Source: Eledone cirrhosa (lineage: Eukaryota). Taken from it: a stretch of 64,000 nt of DNA. The translations under genes and the position numbers were made by a program. Of this stretch, positions 6,137 to 64,000 are shown piece after piece. The notes under the pieces were generated by a model. The model saw nothing but the letters and a program-made list of their open reading frames with translations, was not told where the DNA came from and searched no databases. The stretch covers positions 178,746,001 to 178,810,000 of the forward strand of contig OZ024740.1 in NCBI GenBank assembly GCA_964016885.1, written 5' to 3'. The first letter of the stretch is position 1; each line of letters begins with the position of its first letter.

Positions 6137-8655
6137 CTCTAAGTATGTTAATGTACGCGTGTGTATGTGTGTGTGTGTATATGTGTGTGTGTGAGAATGT
6201 GTGTGTGTGGGTGGACCAGTATTTTTTTCTGGTAAAATGGTGTACATTATTCGATATTTTCAGTAAAATCGATTCCCTCAATAGAACATCAAAAACCTTA
6301 ATAATAAAAGGTGTGAAATGATATATAGTATTGGCATAATACCAAGGTGTGTGTGAGTGTGTGTGTGTGTCCAGATTGTACGTACTGCAAGGGGGATCCA
6401 TTAGCCCTTGCCGTATTGGAATACCTGTGCACAAATAACATCAGCAGACAACCCCTCTACCCCAAACATTTTTTAGACACACCACACAGATACAGGCAAA
6501 CAAAATAACACAAGACAGGGAGGAGAAACCGATAGTAATAAAAATTATCAATCTTACTAGTGCAGAACCAACACCCAACCTTACCAACTTACTCTCCAAA
6601 GGTCTTAAATTCACACCGACCCCACTACGTCCTAACTACTATGAAATGAAGGAAGACATCACAGACTTCTGTAGAAAGTTACGACTCAGTGAAGAACTAT
6701 TCGAACAGTACAATGAGGGTGAATCATTAGCCAGAAATAGAAGCAATTACACCCCATCAAAGGGTAGAAATAAAATCCTGGACGAATTCTGTGAACACAT
6801 CACAAACTTCCCTTACCAACACTTGCACAGACAAAAACACAAGCCAAACCTCAACAAGAAAGAATGGAAAGAATTAAATAGATTAAAAACCGACAGAACC
6901 ATTACAATTAAAGAGGCTGATAAAGGGAGTACAGTAGTCCTAATGGAGACAGAATTCTATATCAACTTAGCGCTCTCCACTTTGGAAAACGAAACATACT
7001 ACGAAAAGGCTGAACACTACAATCAACAGAAAATTATGAGAAACCTAAAAACTCTGATCAACCAATACAAAGAAGGACTCACTAACAAGGAATTCAGCTT
7101 CATCACAGACTTCACAAGTAAATCCAGCCTTTTCTACGGTATCCCTAAAGTACATAAAAGCGAATTAATAAGTAAGGCATGCAAGGAAGCTACAGACATA
7201 GTCATCAATGTCCCCTCACCCAATGATCTCAAATTAAGACCTATAATAGCAGGCCCCGCTTGCGAAACCCAACGCCTTAGCAACTTCATTGATACCCTTC
7301 TCAAGCCTTTTCTCAAACACATCAAATGCTATATAAGGGACGACCTAGATATGCTCAATCACCTCCCTAATATGCCACTTTCTGAACAAACCGTACTAGT
7401 GACGTTCGATGTAGTCAATCTATACTCTAACACCCCCCACAACCTAGGAATAGAAGCTATCCAATTCTGGCTGGATAATTACCACAATGAACTCCCACAA
7501 CGCATCAAAAAGGAATTCGTGATAGAGGGACTCAAATTTATCTTGGAGAACAATTACTTCGTTTTCAATAACAAACCCTACAGGCAGAAATCTGGGACCG
7601 CTATGGGAACGAAAACAGCCCCCACTTATGCCAACCTAGTCATGGGATACCTGGAAATGACCCTCTACACTAAAGTCCTAAACAAATTTGGAAACACTCT
7701 CCACTTACACATAGAAAGGAACTGGAAGCGATATCTAGATGACTGCTTCATCCTTTGGCACGAAAACATCGAGAAACTTAAAGAATTTCACACCCTTATA
7801 AATGGGCTCAACACGAATATTAACTTCACGATGGAATACAGCCATCAACGACTCCCCTTCTTCGACATCCTCATTAAGATCCATAACAAAAAAATAGAAA
7901 CAGACATATACTACAAGCCCACAAACTCTAAGCAATATCTTCCTTTCAACTCTTGCCACCCTAGACACGTTAAAATTAATATTCCCTACAACTTAGCCAA
8001 GAGAATCTGTACTATAATCTCCAATAAAAACACCTGCTACTTACGGCTACAAGAACTAAAGGACACACTCATAGGCAGGGACTACCCTGCATCACTAATT
8101 GACAATGGAATCCAACGTGCCCTAAAATTCAGTACTCAGGACCTTAGACACCCTAAAGTAAATCAACCGAAACTAAAAGCTCTTCCATACATCTCCACAC
8201 ACAACCCCCTCAACAATGAGGCCTTTGACACCATCCTCCAGAACATCCCTGTGTTGAAAAAGGACCATAGAATGAACCAAATCCTACGAACACACGATAT
8301 CATAAAGAGCAAAAGACAATCTAAGTCAATGAAAAACATCCTAACACATGCCAAAGTACTGCCAACCACAACAACGAAACCCACAGTAAAAAAAATGCGA
8401 TAGACCCAACTGTGGCATTTGCATCAACCTAATAGCGGGTTCGGAATTCTATTTCAAGAAGGACAACGTTTTATAGTAAAACACAATTTCACATGCGCAT
8501 CAGAAAATATTTGCGCATCATAAAAACGGGTAGAATTCCCAAAACTAATCAGATCAGAGCAAACATCACGGACGCTCTATCTCAAAATTATTTTCGAAAA
8601 GCATTAGAAATGCGCGGCCGGTAAAACTTAAAACCAAAACTGTATACTAACAATA
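5375..8655 (+). mobile_element. Penelope-like retroelement (Neptune-like) with inverted pseudo-LTR at 5' end, inserted in (TA)n
   Basis: Contains the RT ORF. 5455-5594 is the reverse complement of 8520-8655. Left end abuts (TA)n. The same terminal sequence forms the palindrome at 56322-56720. Confidence 0.85.
6439..8511 (+). pseudogene. PLE reverse transcriptase ORF (track ORF 6646-8403), frameshifted in the Cys linker and truncated before the GIY-YIG motif
   Basis: Frame is open from 6439 (IINLTS..LLSKGLKFTPTP). Motifs: ADKGS, FYGIPKVHK, LRPII, VTFDVVNLYSN, YRQKSGTAMGTKTAPTYANL, RYLDD, LPFFDI, SCHPRH. After 8395, shifted frames give KCDRPNCGICINL and HNFTCASENI, then the sequence jumps to pLTR. 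Confidence 0.92.
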
Positions 8656-23163: not shown

Positions 23164-23215
<52 letters not shown>

Positions 23216-23401
23216 TAAATTTAACACTCAATGGTAGGATCATAACCGTATAAAGAACTCAATGTAATCCGTATGTAGAAGATTTCGTGAAGCAAAGTTT
23301 AAAATACAAAGATTTTATCAACGATATAATTCAATTGGATACAGAGTCAAAATAGAAATATTAAAACAATGAAATTAAACACAAACATTTTAATTCATAG
23401 T

Positions 23402-23551
23402 AAAACTCATTATTTTACGATCGTTTCTGGGGGGTAGTTCCCTGTATGTTCATTCAATTATTGATCTATGTAAAACATATTACAAAATATCATAGTAAGA
23501 AAAAGATACATACGTCTTCACTACCCGCCGTCTTCAGAAATAATGAGTTTT
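23402..23551 (-). ncRNA. Split hammerhead (about 100-nt stem/loop II), left arm
   Basis: Reverse-complement copy of 25758-25906 with GGcGGGTAGT/ACTACCCcCC stem II. Confidence 0.75.
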
Positions 23552-24839
23552 GTTTATTGAAGAATACAAAAAAACATACATATGAATAAGTAAAGTTTTA
23601 TAACCAGGTTGAAATTGACCAATGTTAAGAATGGAAAGGGGCAGTATAAATCCTTAAGGTTGGTGGTAGTAGATGAATAAATAGGCCATCAGTGGATAAT
23701 GTATCAGATGTCTTTTAAGAAAAGAAATGAGAGTTGTTAGTGTAAATGAAATTAGGCATATTGTATATAAAGGTGTTGATGGTCAAAGAAGATTACGGTT
23801 GGAGGAAAAGGGGTACTGAGATTAGTGTGTTACATCAAGTAGAATGTAATAGAACAATCTTAAAATGTTAGTTATTTCTTTGTTGGGAGGAATAATTTGT
23901 TCTAAAAATATTTAATATAAAAAATATATACACGTATACTCACACATGTTTATATATAGGCATACATTTATGCATATACATATACACACACAGATATACA
24001 TATTCACACACACACCTATACTCACACATTTATTCACCTATATCTTTTTCTATATTTGTTTAGTTGTATTTATAATATATGAATGTCCTTCTAATTTTAT
24101 GGTTACATACTAAAATTAATTCTTGTCTTTTATTTAATAGAGTGTCCTTCGATTTATTAATTTGAACATTTCTTGAGAACATAGTCCGCACTCCTTTCTA
24201 TTGCTCCCCTGATAAGAAATTGCTCTCTTAAGAATCTTCCAAGTTTGGTTATATTTAATATTATTCTTTTTACAATTATTAACTGCTTCTGCTAAAGAAG
24301 TGGTATTTGCTAATTTTGTGTTTCGGAAACTGTGGGTGTGTGCATAAAATCTCGATTTAAATGGATTAGAAGTAGATCCTATACAGGATTGATTAGAGTC
24401 TTTAATACAGTAAAATTTTCTTACTCCACATAGAGCAATATACAACAAAAAATAAATGCATATAACATCTATAAATGTAAAAAAGCTCCATCTATACCAC
24501 ACACAAGATAACTATGGTAATACTACAACGCATAACCTGAATATTACTGCATACCCACCTGATAGATCCGCTCACTCACTTCACCAGCACAATATAGCAG
24601 ATTACAACCAACTACCATCTTCCTCTTCCTTAATAGGGACTAAGATTTATATACCCAATCTAACTAATAGCATCCAAAACAACCATGATTCTATAAACGC
24701 TATATCAAGTATAATTTCACCTACTAGCAACAATTCGGATTACAACCACCATACCGTAAACCCTTCTCTCCCAAATAAAAAGATAAACACAAATACTAGC
24801 ACTATTATTGAGAATATGGATAGCACATCTGAAACGCTA

Positions 24840-25245
24840 AATGCAAACGGTTGTAATTGTAGAATAAAAGATAATTGCCCGTTAAATGGAAATTGCTTAA
24901 TTAATAATATAGTATATATATATGTAATCACCACTAAAGACTCTAATCAATCATTTTTAGGATCCATTTCTAATCCATTTAAATCGAGATTTTATGCACA
25001 CACCCACAGTTTCCGAAACACAAAATTAGCAAATACCACTTCTTTAGCAGAAGCAGTTAATAATTGTAAAAAGAAGAATATTAAATATAACCAAACTTGG
25101 AAGATTCTTAAGAGAGCAATTTCTTATCAGGGGAGCAATAGAAGGGAGTGTAATTTTTGAAAGTAATTTTTGAAATTACTAAATCGAAGGACACTCTTTT
25201 AAATAAAAGACAAGAATTAATTTTAGTATGTAACCATAAAATTAG
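24840..25245 (+). pseudogene. GIY-YIG endonuclease domain of Naiad/Chlamys-clade PLE (degenerate)
   Basis: CNC-x4-CPLNGNC linker, FKxRFYxHxxSFR, WKILKRA, LNKRxE..C.HK C-terminus. Inverted partial copy at 24100-24404. Confidence 0.85.
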
Positions 25246-25757
25246 AAGGACATTCAAATATTATAAATACAACTAAACAAATATAGAAAAAGATATAGGT
25301 GAATAAATGTGTGAGTATAGGTGTGTGTGTGAATATGTATATCTGTGTGTGTATATGTATGTATATGCATGTATACGTGTATATATTTTTTATATTATAT
25401 ATTTTTAGAACAAATTATTCCTCCCAACAAAGAAATAACTAACATTTTAAGATTGTTCTATTATATTCTACTTGATGTAACACACTAATCTCAGCACCCC
25501 TTTTCCTCCAACCGTAATCTTCTTTGACCATCAACACTTTTATATACAATATGCCTAATTTCATTTACACTAACAACTCTCATTTTTTTCTTAAAAGACA
25601 TCTGATACATTATCCACTGATGGCCTATTTATTCATCTACTACCACCAACCTTAAGGATTTATACTGCCCCTTTCCATTCTTAACATTGGTCAATTTCAA
25701 CCTGGTTATAAAACTTTACTTATTCATATGTATGTTTTTTTGTATTCTTCAATAAAC

Positions 25758-25906
25758 AAAACTCATTATTTCTGAAGACGGCGGGTAGTGAAGACGTATG
25801 TATCTTTTTCTTACTATGATATTTTGTAATATGTTTTACATAGATCAATAATTGAATGAACATAAAGGGAAATACCCCCAGAAACGATCGTAAAATAATG
25901 AGTTTT
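25758..25906 (+). ncRNA. Split hammerhead (about 100-nt stem/loop II)
   Basis: aaaactcattattt-CTGAAGA(25772)-...102 nt...-GAAA(25881)-CGATCG-TA-aaataatgagtttt (14-bp stem I). Confidence 0.75.
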
Positions 25907-25961
25907 ACTATGAATTAACAGTTTTGTGTTTAATTTCATTGTTTTAATATTTATATATATA

Positions 25962-38074: not shown

Positions 38075-38140
38075 TATTTTATTATATATATTTCAAGGGC
38101 GATCAAGACAATATTGGTGCGCTTTCATCAGATAAAATAT
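38075..38140 (-). ncRNA. Minimal hammerhead, same family as 15443-15503
   Basis: On minus: tattttat-CTGATGA-aagcgc..gccctt-GAAA-TATATA-TA-ataaaata. Confidence 0.7.
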
Positions 38141-53054: not shown

Positions 53055-54230
53055 TTATCTCTTTCTCTTAATTTCGAGTATATTTTTTTTGACCGGCCAC
53101 CTTCCTGGTGGCAAGGTTGTAAAAGAAAAGAAATTGTCATCCCTTGAATCGCAAGAATGTTTTGCAAATTTTGAAGGTGCCAGCTATCGCAGCCATTTGT
53201 AGACTATGAATTAGGGAGCTGCGCTTTTTGTCCGCAAATCCAAGTTCAGTCATACTTTGGTCCAAGCGGGTTGGTATATAACCCGTAGCTCCAATAATGA
53301 TGGGTATGAAGCTAAAGGTGTATCTTGGATAGTGGATTTGTAAACTCCTCATCAACGTAGATGTCCTCCTTCTCCTGTATTTTTCTGACAACGTTTACAT
53401 CAAGTGGGCAGCTGATCTCCACAACAGAATACGTTTTCAATGTGTGGTCCCAAACAACAATATCAGGCCGGTTGTGCTTTAATTTGGTGGCAGTTTTTAT
53501 TTTCAGGTTCCACCAGTATTCCTTAGTGCCATCTGTCTCAATATATTCTTCCTCGTTTGTTGTTAATTTTGTTTTCCGAAGTGCGTTCCAGATGGTTCTA
53601 GCTATCCCATCGTGTCTCATGGGGAGGTAGTAGCGAGATGACATTATTTCGCAGCTGGCAACAATGTGGCTTACATCCTCGATCTTTGTTTTACATAGCC
53701 TACATTTATTGTCAGCTGCTGGCCCTCCTCTTTTGTGCAGCAGATATTTGGTAGGGAGTTCTTGTTCCTGTATTGCATAGAGATATCCCTCAAGGTATGA
53801 TGTCATAAACTTGTCGGAACTCCATGCCAGGCTTTTTGAGTGGTTTATCCTCTCCATGTTCTGTGTTTTACGTCTCAAGTATCCATGCACAACTTTTTCT
53901 ATAAATTGGTCAATTTTTTTTATCTTGTTTGAACATTGAATAGGATCTTCCGATTTCTCTGGGTGAGAGATTTATATCAGGCTTTATTCCATATCTCTCC
54001 TCCAGATCAGTCGCTATTCTAATGATATTTTTTTTTCATGCTCATAAACCTGGGCTAGATGGTTGCCAACCTTTTTCCTGTTAAAGGTGTTGCTTCAGTG
54101 TTACTATCCGGGTCTCATATGTTTTTAATATTGATTTTAAACCCCGGCCACCTTCCTTGCGTGAGAAGTATAGCCTATCCACATCACCATTGATGTTAAA
54201 GTTCCCAGTAACACTGAGAAGTTTGCGAGT
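53055..54230 (-). mobile_element. 5'-truncated R4/Dong-like copy 1
   Basis: Near-identical to 62035-63215. Flanked by (TATG)n. Small frameshifting deletion near 53356. Confidence 0.92.
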
Positions 54231-54237
54231 ATGCATG

Positions 54238-54271
<34 letters not shown>

Positions 54272-54273
54272 TG

Positions 54274-55027
54274 TTTTCTCTTTCTCTTAATTTCGAGTAT
54301 ATTTTTTTGACCGGCCACCTTCCTGGTGGCAAGGTTGTAAAAGAAAAGAAATTGTCATCCCTTGAATCGCAAGAATGTTTTGCAAATTTTGAAGGTGCCA
54401 GCTATCGCAGCCATTTGTAGACTATGAATTAGGGAGCTGCGCTTTTTGTCCGCAAATCCAAGTTCAGTCATACTTTAGTCCAAGCGGATTGGTATATAAC
54501 CCGTAGCTCCAATAATGATGGGTATGAAGCTAAAGGTGTATCTTGGATACTGGATTTGTAAACTCCTCATCAATGGTCCGTAGATGTCCTCCTTCTCCTG
54601 TATTTTTCTGACAACGTTTACATCAAGTGGGCAGCTGATCTCCACAACAAAACACGTTTTCAATGTGTGGTCCCAAACTACAATATCAGGCCGGTTGTGC
54701 TTTAATTTGGTGGCAGTTTTTATTTTCAGGTTCCACCAGTATTCCTTAGTGCCATCTGTCTCAATATATTCTTCCTCGTTTGTTGTTAATTTTGTTTTCC
54801 GAAGTGCGTTCCAGATGGTTCTAGCTATCCCATCGTGCCTCATGGGGAGGTAGTAGCGAGATGACATTATTTCGCAGCTGGCAACAATGTGGCTTACATC
54901 CTCGATCTTTGTTTTACATAGCCTACATTTATTGTCAGCTGCTGACCCTCCTCTTTTGTGCAGCAAATATTTGGTAGGGAGTTCTTGTTCCTGTATTGCA
55001 TAGAGATATCCCTCAAGGTGTGATGTC

Positions 55028-55029
<2 letters not shown>
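54274..55029 (-). mobile_element. 5'-truncated R4/Dong-like copy 2
   Basis: Same 3' end, CCHC and RLE coding region. Flanked by (TATG)n. Confidence 0.92.
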
Positions 55030-55058
<29 letters not shown>

Positions 55059-55112
55059 TGTATGTATGTATGTATGTATGTATGCATGTATGTATGTATG
55101 TATGTATGTATG

Positions 55113-55602
55113 TTTTCTCTTTCTCTTAATTTCGAGTATATTTTTTTGACCGGCCACCTTCCTGGTGGCAAGGTTGTAAAAGAAAAGAAATTGTCATCCC
55201 TTGAATCGCAAGAATGTTTTGCATATTTTGAAGGTGCCAGCTATCGCAGCCATTTGTAGACTATGAATTAGGGAGCTGCGCTTTTTGTCCGCAAATCCAA
55301 GTTCGGTCATACTTTGGTCCAAGCGGGTTGGTATATAACCCGTAGCACCAATAATGATGGGTATGAAGCTAAAGGTGTATCTTGGATACTGGATTTGTAA
55401 GCTCCTCATCAATGGTCCGTAGATGTCCTCCTTCTCCTGTATTTTTCTGACAACGTTTACATCAAGTGGGCAGCTGATCTCCACAACAGAACACGTTTTC
55501 AATGTGTGGTCCCAAACTACAATATCAGGCCGGTTGTGCTTTAATTTGGTGGCAGTTTTTATTTTCAGGTTCCACCAGTATTCCTTAGTGCCATCTGTCT
55601 CA

Positions 55603-55606
<4 letters not shown>
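55113..55606 (-). mobile_element. 5'-truncated R4/Dong-like copy 3
   Basis: Same 3' end and RLE coding region. Flanked by (TATG)n. Confidence 0.92.
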
Positions 55607-55633
<27 letters not shown>

Positions 55634-56262
55634 TGTATGCATGCATACATGTATGTATTGTATATAGATTCAGTCCGGTGCATTGAGTTGCATCTATTTG
55701 AGTCAAAATGTAACTTAACCATTCAAGAAACAGAGATCTATCAAATAGCTACCAGATTGAAATGTGGTGTCTTTAACTGGCTGATGTTCCGTTATTGAAC
55801 GAATCTGCTCTGGATTTAATTTATAATGAAGTATCAAAAGAATAGATCGTCGTCGCTTGAGTGTTTTTGAAAAATACTCGACCTACGACGATATTCTCTT
55901 TTATACGCATGCTCTGTTAAAACCAATAAAAAAAAGACACTACCATATGTCATTGCATATGTTGCCCTTATACATTTTTGCCGTGTATAATAACATAAGA
56001 AAAGATAGTAAAGAATAAAAGAGTTGGTTAACCATTATAACAAGTATGTGTTATTTCATTGAATATTCAGCGTTAAGTGTAAAGACATTTGCTGACAATA
56101 TAGAGCATCAATTATATTACATTGCATTGTCTTCCATTCAAATCTGTAAGTAGATGATGAGAAAAAGATGATTCATTCTTTCCGTTTTCTTAAATTGTTT
56201 ATGTATATGTGGTGAACAAAATTGACCTTCATATTTGTAGACGATATAAGCCTCTCTCTCTA

Positions 56263-62034: not shown

Positions 62035-64000
62035 TTTTCTCTTTCTCTTAATTTCGAGTATATTTTTTTGACCGGCCACCTTCCTGGTGGCAAGGTTGTA
62101 AAAGAAAAGAAATTGTCATCCCTTGAATCGCAAGAATGTTTTGCATATTTTGAAGGTGCCAGCTATCGCAGCCATTTGTAGACTATGAATTAGGGAGCTG
62201 CGCTTTTTGTCCGCAAATCCAAATTCGGTCATACTTTGGTCCAAGCGGGTTGGTATATAACCCGTAGCACCAATAATGATGGGTATGAAGCTAAAGGTGT
62301 ATCTTGGATACTGGATTTGTAAGCTCCTCATCAATGGTCCGTAGATGTCCTCCTTCTCCTGTATTTTTCTGACAACGTTTACATCAAGTGGGCAGCTGAT
62401 CTCCACAACAGAACACGTTTTCAATGTGTGGTCCCAAACTACAATATCAGGCCGGTTGTGCTTTAATTTGGTGGCAGTTTTTATTTTCAGGTTCCACCAG
62501 TATTCCTTAGTGCCATCTGTCTCAATATATTCTTCCTCGTTTGTTGTTAATTTTGTTTTCCGAAGTGCGTTCCAGATAGTTCTAGCTATCCCATCGTGTC
62601 TCATGGGGAGGTAGTAGCGAGATGACATTCTTTCGCAGCTGGCAACAATGTGACTTACATCCTCGATCTTTGTTTTACATAGCCTACATTTATTGTCAGC
62701 TGCTGGCCCTCCTCTTTTGTGCAGCAGATATTTGGTAGGGAGTTCTTGTTCCTGTATTGCATAGAGATATCCCTCAAGGTGTGATGTCATAAACTTGTCG
62801 GAACTCCATGCCAGGCTTTTTGAGTGGTTTATCCCCTCTATGGTCTGTGTTTTACGCCTCAAGTATCCATGCACAACTTTCTCTGTAAATTGGTCAATTT
62901 TTTTTCTTGTTTGAACATTGAATAAGATCTTCCGATTTCTCTGGGTGAGAGATTTATATCAGGCTTTATTCCATATCTCTCCTACAGATCAGTCGCTATT
63001 CTAATGATATTTCTTTTTTCATGCTCATAAACCTGAGCAAGATGGTCGCCAACCTTTTTCCTCTGTTGAAGGTGTTGCTTCAGTGTTACTATCCGGGTCT
63101 CATATGTTGTTAATATTGATTTTAGACCCCGGCCACCTTCCTTGCGTGAGAAGTATAGCCTATCCACATCACCATTGATGTTAAAGTTCCCAGTAACACT
63201 GAGAAGTTTACGAGTTCTAACATCCATCTCACTTAGTTCTTGCAATGACCAGTTCAGTAGGCCAAATGTTGGCTTTATAATTGGCACAGCATAGGTATTG
63301 TGGGCAATGTATTTGTTATATGCTGACAGTTCTGATGACCATATTTTTTTTACTCTTCTGAGGTATTCAGTTCTGGTTCTCTCCTTATTTATGGGTCCAT
63401 CATATCTGACATTCTCATCCTGTCCAAGATATCTGTAGTTGTCACCTGACTGCAGAGGTTGTATTGTCAGGCCGTTCATATCTAGATTTCTAGAGGAGGG
63501 CACAGCTCTTCCACGTTTTACTGCCAAATATGCACACTTGGACTCACCAAATTTCATTTTGATGTCGGTTGAAAATTGTGTAATGAGGTCCAATTGTTTC
63601 TTGATGTCATTGATATTTGGCCCATACAACTTCAGGTCATCAACAAAGAAAAGATGGGAGATACTTCTGGGCCCACTTCTTTGTCCACCTTGTTTCCTGA
63701 GTAGGTAAGATAGTGGATTCAGTGAGAGAACGAAGAGTAGTACTGACAAGCTATCACCCTGAAAGATGCCCTTCTGGTAATGTATCCTATCAGTCTTAAC
63801 CTGCTCCTTCTCACCTCTAAGGATCAAATTGGTGTACCAGTTCTTGGTCAGGCGTTCAACAGCAGCTATTAATGGTTGTGGGACTTTAGCTAACTGTAAA
63901 GCCTTAATAATCCACCCATGAGGTACACTATCAAATGCTTTTTGATAGTCCAGCCACACGACAGTCATGTTTCTGCGATTCTTTGTTGTTTTTTCCTGAA
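62035..64000 (-). mobile_element. R4/Dong-like non-LTR retrotransposon (RT + CCHC + restriction-like endonuclease), runs off window end
   Basis: WLDYQKAFDSVPH, GIFQGDSLS, HLFFVDDLKLY, YRYLG, RLYFSRKEGGRGL, CRLC-x8-H-x4-C, RHD, RPDIVV..VEISCP. 3' end fuses with (CATA)n. Confidence 0.92.
62116..63968 (-). pseudogene. R4/Dong-like ORF interrupted by TAG at 62982-62984 and a 1-nt frameshift near 62900
   Basis: Track ORFs 62982-63968 and 62116-62874 are one gene. The copy at ~54000 has GAG instead of TAG and an in-frame A-run. Confidence 0.88.

What the first reader, a model, noticed from the sequence alone, without database searches (positions are those of the whole stretch)
25758..25906. Split hammerhead with ~100-nt insertion in loop II linked to a Naiad-type endonuclease
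Seen: 14-bp stem I, CTGAAGA and GAAA 102 nt apart, a G/C-rich basal stem II, further GTATGT/ACATAC pairing (best in the 23402-23551 copy), CGATCG stem III and a GUA site. As I recall, expanded-loop HHRs have been reported for Naiad/Chlamys PLEs. Standard models would miss this one, and the insert could be a structural or regulatory domain.
Basis: partly seen in the sequence, partly recalled or inferred. Interest (0 to 1): 0.7.

Follow-up and report, generated by a model that had tools for sequence, protein, structure and literature searches.

The report
Long-armed hammerhead overlapping a retrotransposon promoter
This is a hammerhead (predicted self-cutting) RNA motif at the end of a broken Penelope-like jumping gene of the Hydra type; its second arm is stretched to about 100 bases in thousands of copies, a fold kept at its base by paired mutations, and the same bases likely double as the element's internal promoter, while the RNA is likely copied mostly uncut.

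Summary
The motif is real: a 14-bp stem I, both core halves 102 nt apart, a palindromic stem III and a GUA site. The insert is not private. At least 5,115 core motifs with 70-116 nt spacers occur genome-wide against 0 controls. All 12 subfamily consensus arms fold as one unbranched rod, with compensatory pairs at the base. The host is not Naiad but a Hydra-clade Penelope-like element (RT, then C-terminal endonuclease). Published Hydra arms are 26 nt or less. The window's copy is a dead 5'-truncated insertion with an inverted arm. Copies of the sister family often start 3-9 nt before the core, mostly at an initiator-like TCA. In this family AGACGT lies exactly +28 from that position, matching the Penelope downstream promoter element; the sister family lacks it. 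Few copies start at the cut site (about 33 against 2,432). So the arm is likely a dual-use leader on a slow, dimer-dependent ribozyme. Cleavage and expression are untested. The scan noted long-armed Hydra hammerheads before, here and in other genomes. New variant of a known kind; interest 0.5.

The parts
25758..25771 (+). Stem I, 5' strand
   Evidence: 14 of 14 pairs with 25893-25906
25763..25767 (+). Initiator-like TCATT; inferred transcription start at A25765, 7 nt before the core
   Evidence: 5' ends of sister-family B copies peak at this position (10 of 47; 20 of 47 within 3-9 nt), several behind an extra G; 2 of 5 unbiased family A copies start 6-7 nt before the core. The initiator consensus is recalled.
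25772..25778 (+). Hammerhead core, 5' half (CUGAnGA)
25779..25880 (+). Expanded stem II: 102-nt predicted unbranched rod (C.A first pair, two G-C pairs, C.C mismatch, then four helices with internal loops)
   Evidence: family consensus z -3.08; 4 of 7 counted basal pairs compensatory between families A and B
25792..25797 (+). AGACGT at +28 to +33 from the inferred start: candidate downstream promoter element inside the first internal loop of the arm
   Evidence: matches the first six letters of the Penelope element RGACGTGY (PMC2377424 passage); RGACGT occurs at 2.6e-4 per position in the window
25796..25843 (+). GT...AG stretch of 48 nt with donor-like GTATGT and acceptor-like TTTTACATAG: possible retained mini-intron, unsupported so far
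   Evidence: no spliced DNA copy of family B, no such joint in contigs
25881..25892 (+). Core 3' half GAAA, palindromic stem III ACGAUCGU, GUA triplet; predicted cut after 25892
   Evidence: swapped dimer -87.4 against -76.6 kcal/mol for two monomers
25893..25906 (+). Stem I, 3' strand
24404..25955 (+). 5'-truncated Hydra-clade Penelope-like element (linker, endonuclease, 3' UTR, hammerhead), ending about 60 nt after the cut site in (TA)n
   Evidence: 91% identical to the full-length copy in L038; 3' end class +48 to +66
24456..25276 (+). Remnant ORF end: CxCx5C linker and GIY-YIG endonuclease, frameshifted near 25130-25160
   Evidence: intact relatives in L035 and L014; Pfam GIY-YIG E 0.0014 for L035, below the curated cut-off
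23207..24403 (-). Inverted, more truncated copy of the same element, running about 205 nt past the cut site (one-sided tail of about 140 nt) into (TA)n
23402..23551 (-). Second hammerhead copy, arm of 103 nt equal to the family consensus

Best explanation
This is the type I hammerhead motif in the terminal repeat of a Hydra-clade Penelope-like retrotransposon, with stem II grown into a predicted rod of about 100 nt that likely serves as a dual-use leader (promoter in the DNA, folded arm in the RNA) on a ribozyme predicted to cut slowly and only as a dimer. Shown: host clade, anatomy, copy numbers, compensatory pairs in the basal 7-13 bp, high sequence conservation of the tip between families A and B, two 3' end sites downstream of the cut site, a pile-up of 5' ends 3-9 nt before the core in family B, and few starts at the cut site. 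Inferred, in order: (1) RNA polymerase II starts inside the 5' strand of stem I, and in family A the first internal loop of the arm supplies the downstream promoter element, so the hammerhead is the capped first 130 nt of the RNA with only a 7-bp stem I; the 14-bp stem exists only in the read-through 3' copy. (2) The palindromic stem III needs a second hammerhead, and the monomer tends to misfold, so cutting is slow and most template RNA stays uncut. (3) Reverse transcription starts at two sites about 60 and 205 nt past the cut site and runs back through the arm, which gives the two arms and the one-sided tail seen in the window. (4) The basal helix is selected to keep the core junction; the conserved tip is likely a binding site for the element's own protein next to those priming sites (weakest step). 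The copy at 25758 is a dead insertion.
For: Clade. Family-wide arm. Fold: 12 of 12 subfamily consensus arms (58-106 nt) fold as one rod, z -1.7 to -7.0, while 7 of 7 control windows from the same UTRs give z -0.3 to +1.4. Covariation: A+B 61 cells changed on both sides against 26 in shuffles, 4 of 7 basal pairs; 57-62 nt group 9 pairs in all, 4 of 7 basal; B alone 2 of 13 basal pairs. Tip: 28 of 30 columns identical between A and B while most of the 3' UTR does not align credibly. Start site and promoter; an unrelated family (E1) has the same hexamer AGACGT exactly +28 from its own 5'-end pile-up 35 nt before the core; D. virilis Penelope has an internal promoter with RGACGTGY (PMC2377424 passages). 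Uncut template: 62 hits with other bases before the cut site, 16 of the first 30 true starts, against 2,432 read-through copies; in vitro, anole Poseidon inserts from unprocessed RNA and starts at two internal sites (PMC11167929 passages). 3' ends: 17 of 34 at +48 to +66, 15 of 34 at +201 to +208, 1 into the ORF, 1 at +7. Dimer; low dimer-dependent activity of PLE hammerheads (PMC4209133).
Against: No cleavage or expression data. Covariation is confined to the basal helix and stem I: the 12-bp middle helix of B has 0 of 12 pairs changed on both sides, the distal helices of the 57-62 nt group 1 of 12, and the pair-count measures do not beat the shuffles (265 and 328 of 500); copies are related, so cells overcount events. 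RNAalifold found no arm in 16 old family F copies and only the base plus two small hairpins in 15 family G copies. Family B, with the same start position, has TGAAGG at +28 and its nearest look-alike 3 nt later; F and the 32-nt family are one base off; G and H show none (read). The start in family A rests on 2 of 5 unbiased copies plus homology to B. The E1 sample was partly picked by a query holding the upstream bases. Many 5' ends are fold-back junctions, whose position is ambiguous by a few bases. Very short cDNAs from cut RNA may insert poorly, which would hide cleavage. Sister Hydra families thrive with 11-36 nt arms, so a long arm is not required in general. Protein binding has no direct evidence.
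Confidence: 0.5

Rival explanations
1. Tolerated growth: only the basal helix matters; the rest of the arm is neutral sequence added by slippage and fold-back during reverse transcription, kept paired just enough not to disturb the core.
For: Arm lengths form a ladder from 11 to about 105 nt across families; arm sequences of A/B, F, G, H and E do not resemble each other; private duplications and fold-backs inside the arm are visible; distal covariation is nearly absent.
Against: The tip is 28 of 30 identical between A and B, whose endonucleases are only about 70% identical. No family exceeds about 110 nt (148 hits against 48 controls at 118-148 nt; those listed are private duplications or unrelated single hits). 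Short-loop deletion copies of the long families appear as singles among the first 100 listed, not as amplified subfamilies.
Confidence: 0.25
2. Splice switch: the arm hides a 42-48 nt retained intron; its donor GUAUGU is paired with ACAUAC, so folding of the arm decides between unspliced template RNA and spliced mRNA.
For: Donor scores 8 of 9 in B, 7 of 9 in F, 6 of 9 in A, with acceptor-like ends in all three; the stretches conserved between A and B are the donor, a branch-like TGAT and the acceptor; D. virilis Penelope has a 75-nt intron 46 nt after its start.
Against: 0 spliced junctions of family B in the genome; no GT-AG joint in the contigs of 3 runs of one sample; no such intron fits G or the 57-62 nt families; 42-48 nt is short. 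Penelope-like elements keep their introns in DNA copies, so the DNA blanks are weak.
Confidence: 0.12
3. Active ribozyme with a relocated tertiary contact: the conserved C.C or U.C mismatch at the fourth pair of stem II docks on stem I in place of loop II, the ribozyme cuts efficiently, and the products circularise.
For: A pyrimidine mismatch at that position in A (29 of 34), B (49 of 53), E (18 of 18), c6 (5 of 5) and F; core and palindrome conserved in all families; U.U or C.A at the first pair also occurs in published Hydra and PLE-X motifs.
Against: G, H and c5 lack the mismatch; few copies start at the cut site; stem I is an unbroken helix with no bulge to dock on.
Confidence: 0.12
4. One reading: a split hammerhead of a Naiad element, or a private secondary insertion in an ordinary hammerhead.
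For: The endonuclease remnant has a Cys-rich linker, as Naiads do.
Against: RT precedes the endonuclease and all Hydra diagnostics are met; the arm is fixed in the family.
Confidence: 0.01

Closest known systems
Hammerheads of Hydra-clade Penelope-like elements, including Hydra-1_Obim (PMC8557442; sections 6 and 11, File S1 and S2 tables read)
   Same: Type I motif near the 3' end after a C-terminal GIY-YIG endonuclease; palindromic stem III; often a mismatch at the first pair of stem II; (TA)n targets; inverted truncated copy and one-sided tail.
   Different: Core-to-core spacer 26 nt or less in the listed Hydra motifs and about 54 nt at most in the whole table (spike-moss PLE-X1), against 93-106 nt here; tail about 140 nt rather than 30-40; element about 4.2 kb rather than under 3 kb.
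Minimal hammerheads of metazoan PLE terminal repeats (PMC4209133; parts 1-2 of 4 read)
   Same: Same position, dimer-type palindrome, longer than usual helix II, low activity.
   Different: Helix II of 6-8 bp with a conserved G10.1-C11.1 pair; here a 30-bp interrupted rod that opens with C.A and a long stem I.
D. virilis Penelope internal promoter (PMC2377424; passages read)
   Same: Start site in the terminal repeat, downstream element RGACGTGY, splice donor shortly after.
   Different: Shown by reporter assays there; inferred from insertion ends here, and absent in the sister family B.
Anole Poseidon in vitro system (PMC11167929; abstract and passages read)
   Same: Two reverse-transcription start sites downstream of the hammerhead that define the tail; uncut RNA as template.
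   Different: Other clade, short stem II, ORF starts inside the ribozyme; here the ATG is about 290 nt after the cut site.
Discontinuous Clec2 hammerhead of mammals (passages in PMC6155905, PMC6765202)
   Same: Core halves separated by a long insert.
   Different: Type III, insert of 150-1500 nt in helix I, single-copy host gene, cleavage shown.

Membership tests
Type I hammerhead ribozyme | Core CUGAnGA, GAAA and NUH at a three-way junction, open stem I | tested here: met
Type I hammerhead ribozyme | Stem II closed next to the core by a purine-pyrimidine pair (G10.1-C11.1) | tested here: not met
   C.A in 31 of 34 A and 37 of 53 B copies; but U.U and C.A occur at this place in published PLE motifs, so this lowers expected rate more than membership
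Type I hammerhead ribozyme | Loop I to loop II tertiary contact | tested here: inconclusive
   no short loop II; a conserved pyrimidine mismatch at pair 4 in five groups, absent in three
Type I hammerhead ribozyme | Match to an Rfam hammerhead model | tested here: not met
   short-armed loci were missed as well
Type I hammerhead ribozyme | Self-cleavage at the NUH site | not testable with these tools
   only an indirect genomic footprint, which is weak
Metazoan PLE dimer-type hammerhead | Palindromic short stem III allowing a swapped dimer | tested here: met
   ACGAUCGU; computed dimer 10.8 kcal/mol below two monomers
Hydra clade of Penelope-like elements | Single ORF, RT then C-terminal GIY-YIG endonuclease | tested here: met
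   L038, L031, L035; Pfam GIY-YIG weak
Hydra clade of Penelope-like elements | RWK-like and DKT motifs | tested here: met
   RWRA and DKT in L038; definition
Hydra clade of Penelope-like elements | CxCx5C linker, CxxC and CxH, no CCHH | tested here: met
   alignment A5
Hydra clade of Penelope-like elements | Insertion into (TA)n | tested here: met
Hydra clade of Penelope-like elements | RT tree placement with published Hydra proteins | not tested
   only an endonuclease tree of 13 in-genome rows was built
Naiad clade | N-terminal endonuclease, CxC domain, DKA motif, no canonical hammerhead | tested here: not met
Initiator plus downstream-element promoter | RGWYV-type element at +28 from the initiator A (spacing rule recalled) | tested here: inconclusive
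   exact in A and E1, one base off in F and the 32-nt family, not met in B, G, H

The most novel reading that the evidence does not exclude
Hydra-clade elements of this animal lineage have turned hammerhead stem II into a 60-105 nt multifunctional platform at the capped 5' end of their RNA: the same bases act as the internal promoter in DNA, damp self-cleavage, dock the reverse transcriptase beside its two priming sites and, in families A and B, lock a mini-intron by pairing its donor, which would explain both hammerhead retention and intron retention in Penelope-like elements.
Probability: 0.15. Interest if true: 0.75.

Novelty: new variant of a known kind. Interest (0 to 1): 0.5.

Why it matters
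What hammerheads do in Penelope-like elements is stated as unclear in the papers read. A natural series of stem II lengths from 11 to about 105 nt in one clade of one genome, with sister families that differ by compensatory changes, allows direct tests of cleavage rate, protein binding and promoter function. It also shows that descriptors with 7-17 nt spacers miss thousands of motifs, so some elements scored as lacking a hammerhead may need a second look.

Tried and rejected
Neptune clade: my first reading, dropped after the Hydra diagnostics. Kink-turn: the first internal loop of family A resembles a Kt-7 type kink-turn (recalled consensus), but B has a different loop, so it was set aside. 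Rfam: no hammerhead among the 150 of 283 rows shown for the window, 0 of 4 matches at the locus, 0 matches in 8 loci. Expression: no RNA holder listed; three runs of one sample and unknown kind hold families A and B, gave no splice joint and cannot show ends. Spliced family B copy: 0 hits; the family A junction was not searched genome-wide. Linking families E, F, c5 and c6 to an ORF failed: the fetched copies are short stubs or head-to-head pairs. Endonuclease tree (13 rows, 144 columns): A and B group (96/98), while G, H, the 32-nt family and one unassigned row stay unresolved, so one or several origins of the long arm cannot be told. Metagenome scan: 6 related loci, of which 3 hold an intact hammerhead (4 motifs, spacers 10-14 nt), so no long arm was seen outside this genome there. 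Pairing of the arm with the stem III palindrome was considered and dropped: it would block the core and is 4 bp in A and B. Lunse et al. 2017 is not held and Arkhipova et al. 2017 was not seen; either may describe longer stem II variants. Only some parts of the PMC8557442 supplement were read, and bioRxiv supplements are closed.

Full report
Observation. A second copy lies inverted at 23402-23551. It folds far better than shuffles (z -4.08); the given copy less so (z -2.16) because of three private changes. Rfam finds no hammerhead here, nor in loci with 11-nt and 32-nt arms.

Host element. The window lies in a 3.0-Gb animal genome, likely a cephalopod (inference from the Hydra-1_Obim resemblance and earlier notes). 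The motif ends a 5'-truncated element at 24404-25955, joined head to head to an inverted copy at 23207-24403, all in (TA)n. Longer copies give an ORF in the order RT, thumb, CxCx5C linker, GIY-YIG endonuclease, with RWR and DKT motifs. These are the diagnostics of the Hydra clade in PMC8557442 (section 11 read). Naiads have the opposite order and are reported to lack canonical hammerheads (passages and section 6). The window's endonuclease is frameshifted, so this copy is dead.

The insert is a family trait. A DNA search gave 1,315 candidates, of which 40 were scored, all 91% or more identical; 34 family A motifs in the fetched loci carry the arm, mostly 101-103 nt. Genome-wide patterns gave 1,285 hits at 70-100 nt and 3,830 at 101-116 nt, with 0 reversed-pattern controls. 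A looser pattern that excludes C after the core gave 2,879 against 53 at 55-85 nt and 1,046 against 31 at 86-116 nt. Above 118 nt there were 148 against 48; those listed are private duplications or unrelated single hits. Clustering 184 motifs gave several unrelated arm sequences of 53-105 nt. Families A, B, G and H link to Hydra endonucleases, as do families with 11-nt and 32-nt arms. In the published table the longest Hydra spacer is 26 nt and the longest of all about 54 nt (File S2 read). Of six related metagenome loci, three hold intact motifs, with spacers of 10-14 nt.

Structure. All 12 subfamily consensus arms fold as one unbranched rod, z -1.7 to -7.0; seven control windows from the same UTRs give z -0.3 to +1.4. 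On a structure I wrote by hand, 10 family A and 24 family B copies (of 34 and 53 held) show changes on both sides in 4 of 7 basal pairs, 61 cells against 26 in shuffles. Thirty copies of the 57-62 nt group show the same in 4 of 7 basal pairs. The limits: the number of covarying pairs does not beat the shuffles, related copies inflate cell counts, the middle helix of B has 0 of 12 such pairs in 22 copies, and RNAalifold recovers no arm from 16 old F copies and only part from 15 G copies. The tip is conserved in sequence instead: 28 of 30 columns between A and B, whose 3' UTRs mostly do not align. The first pair of stem II is C.A in A and most of B, and the fourth is a pyrimidine mismatch in five groups. 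Mismatches at the first pair are common in published Hydra motifs.

Cutting. The monomer prefers a fold that pairs the core away, by 2 kcal/mol, and a swapped dimer through the palindrome is 10.8 kcal/mol below two monomers, as expected for PLE hammerheads (PMC4209133, parts 1-2 of 4 read). If cut RNA were a common template, copies should start at the cut site. For family B, 62 hits had other bases there; of the first 30, 16 were true starts, 13 still had the ribozyme and 1 was an inversion. Against 2,432 read-through copies that is about 1.3%. By contrast 20 of 47 B copies with an intact core start 3-9 nt before it, 10 of them at the A of TCA and several behind an extra G (seven rows at 9 nt were read-through copies of another subfamily and are not counted). 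Family A copies end at two sites past the cut site, 17 of 34 at +48 to +66 and 15 of 34 at +201 to +208; the window has one of each. This fits the anole Poseidon work, where reverse transcription starts at two internal sites on unprocessed RNA (PMC11167929, abstract and passages). Short cDNAs from cut RNA may insert poorly, so this is indirect.

Promoter overlap. Counting from A25765, positions +28 to +33 read AGACGT, the first six letters of the downstream element RGACGTGY reported for D. virilis Penelope (PMC2377424 passages); the +28 spacing rule is recalled. The hexamer class occurs at 2.6e-4 per position in the window. An unrelated family, E1, has AGACGT exactly +28 from its own pile-up of 5' ends, there inside stem I. 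Family B does not fit, F and the 32-nt family are one base off, and G and H show nothing. The idea arose after seeing the data. A donor-like GTATGT follows directly and could open a 42-48 nt intron in A and B, but no spliced form was found.

Mechanism. Most likely the hammerhead is the capped start of the element's RNA and recurs in the read-through 3' repeat. It cuts slowly and only in pairs. Its long arm is held at the base by selection for the junction, carries promoter letters in family A, and probably presents a conserved tip to the element's protein beside the priming sites (0.5). Rivals: tolerated growth (0.25), a splice switch (0.12), an active ribozyme with a relocated contact (0.12).

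Novelty. Hammerheads in Hydra elements are known. Arms of 90-105 nt were not found in print in the library searched. Other papers were seen as passages only (PMC13725137, PMC6765202, PMC6155905, PMC7936874, PMC10085705, PMC13159263) or part 1 of 5 (10.64898/2026.07.22.740005); Lunse et al. 2017 is not held. Earlier notes of this scan describe the same class in this genome and others; they are unchecked and not counted as support, and the docking wording follows them. Verdict: new variant of a known kind, interest 0.5.

Noticed in passing
window 2378, 14260, 15451, 16571, 30970, 46901 (+ strand core starts) and minus-strand cores near 38131, 29932 and 15338: At least nine other hammerhead motifs of other families, with spacers of 13-48 nt; the 48-nt family occurs as an inverted pair.
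   Followed up: partly
window 25751-25756: AATAAA 16 nt before the core, conserved between families A and B, just upstream of the inferred start site.
   Followed up: no
window 23207-23345 against 25955: The one-sided tail of this family is about 140 nt, much longer than the 30-40 nt described for PLEs.
   Followed up: partly
L250:476-2460, L257: A sister Hydra family has a 3' UTR of about 2 kb before its 32-nt-arm hammerhead.
   Followed up: partly
L038:4739-6520, L035:5734-6140: Family A has two long low-complexity Asn/Ser/Thr/His-rich inserts in its ORF, around the RT thumb, which make the element about 4.2 kb.
   Followed up: no
window 25783-25795 with 25863-25877: The first internal loop of the family A arm resembles a kink-turn (recalled consensus); not conserved in family B.
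   Followed up: partly
L262-L291: Family E copies are mostly short head-to-head pairs whose centres lie near 35 nt before the core.
   Followed up: partly
window 6439-8403: 654-aa open RT frame of another Penelope-like element with a DKG motif (Pfam RVT_1, E 2.5e-6).
   Followed up: no
window 53312-55748 and 62116-62958 (minus strand): Several repeated fragments of one non-LTR retrotransposon C-terminal region with a zinc knuckle and restriction-like endonuclease motif (label from recall).
   Followed up: no
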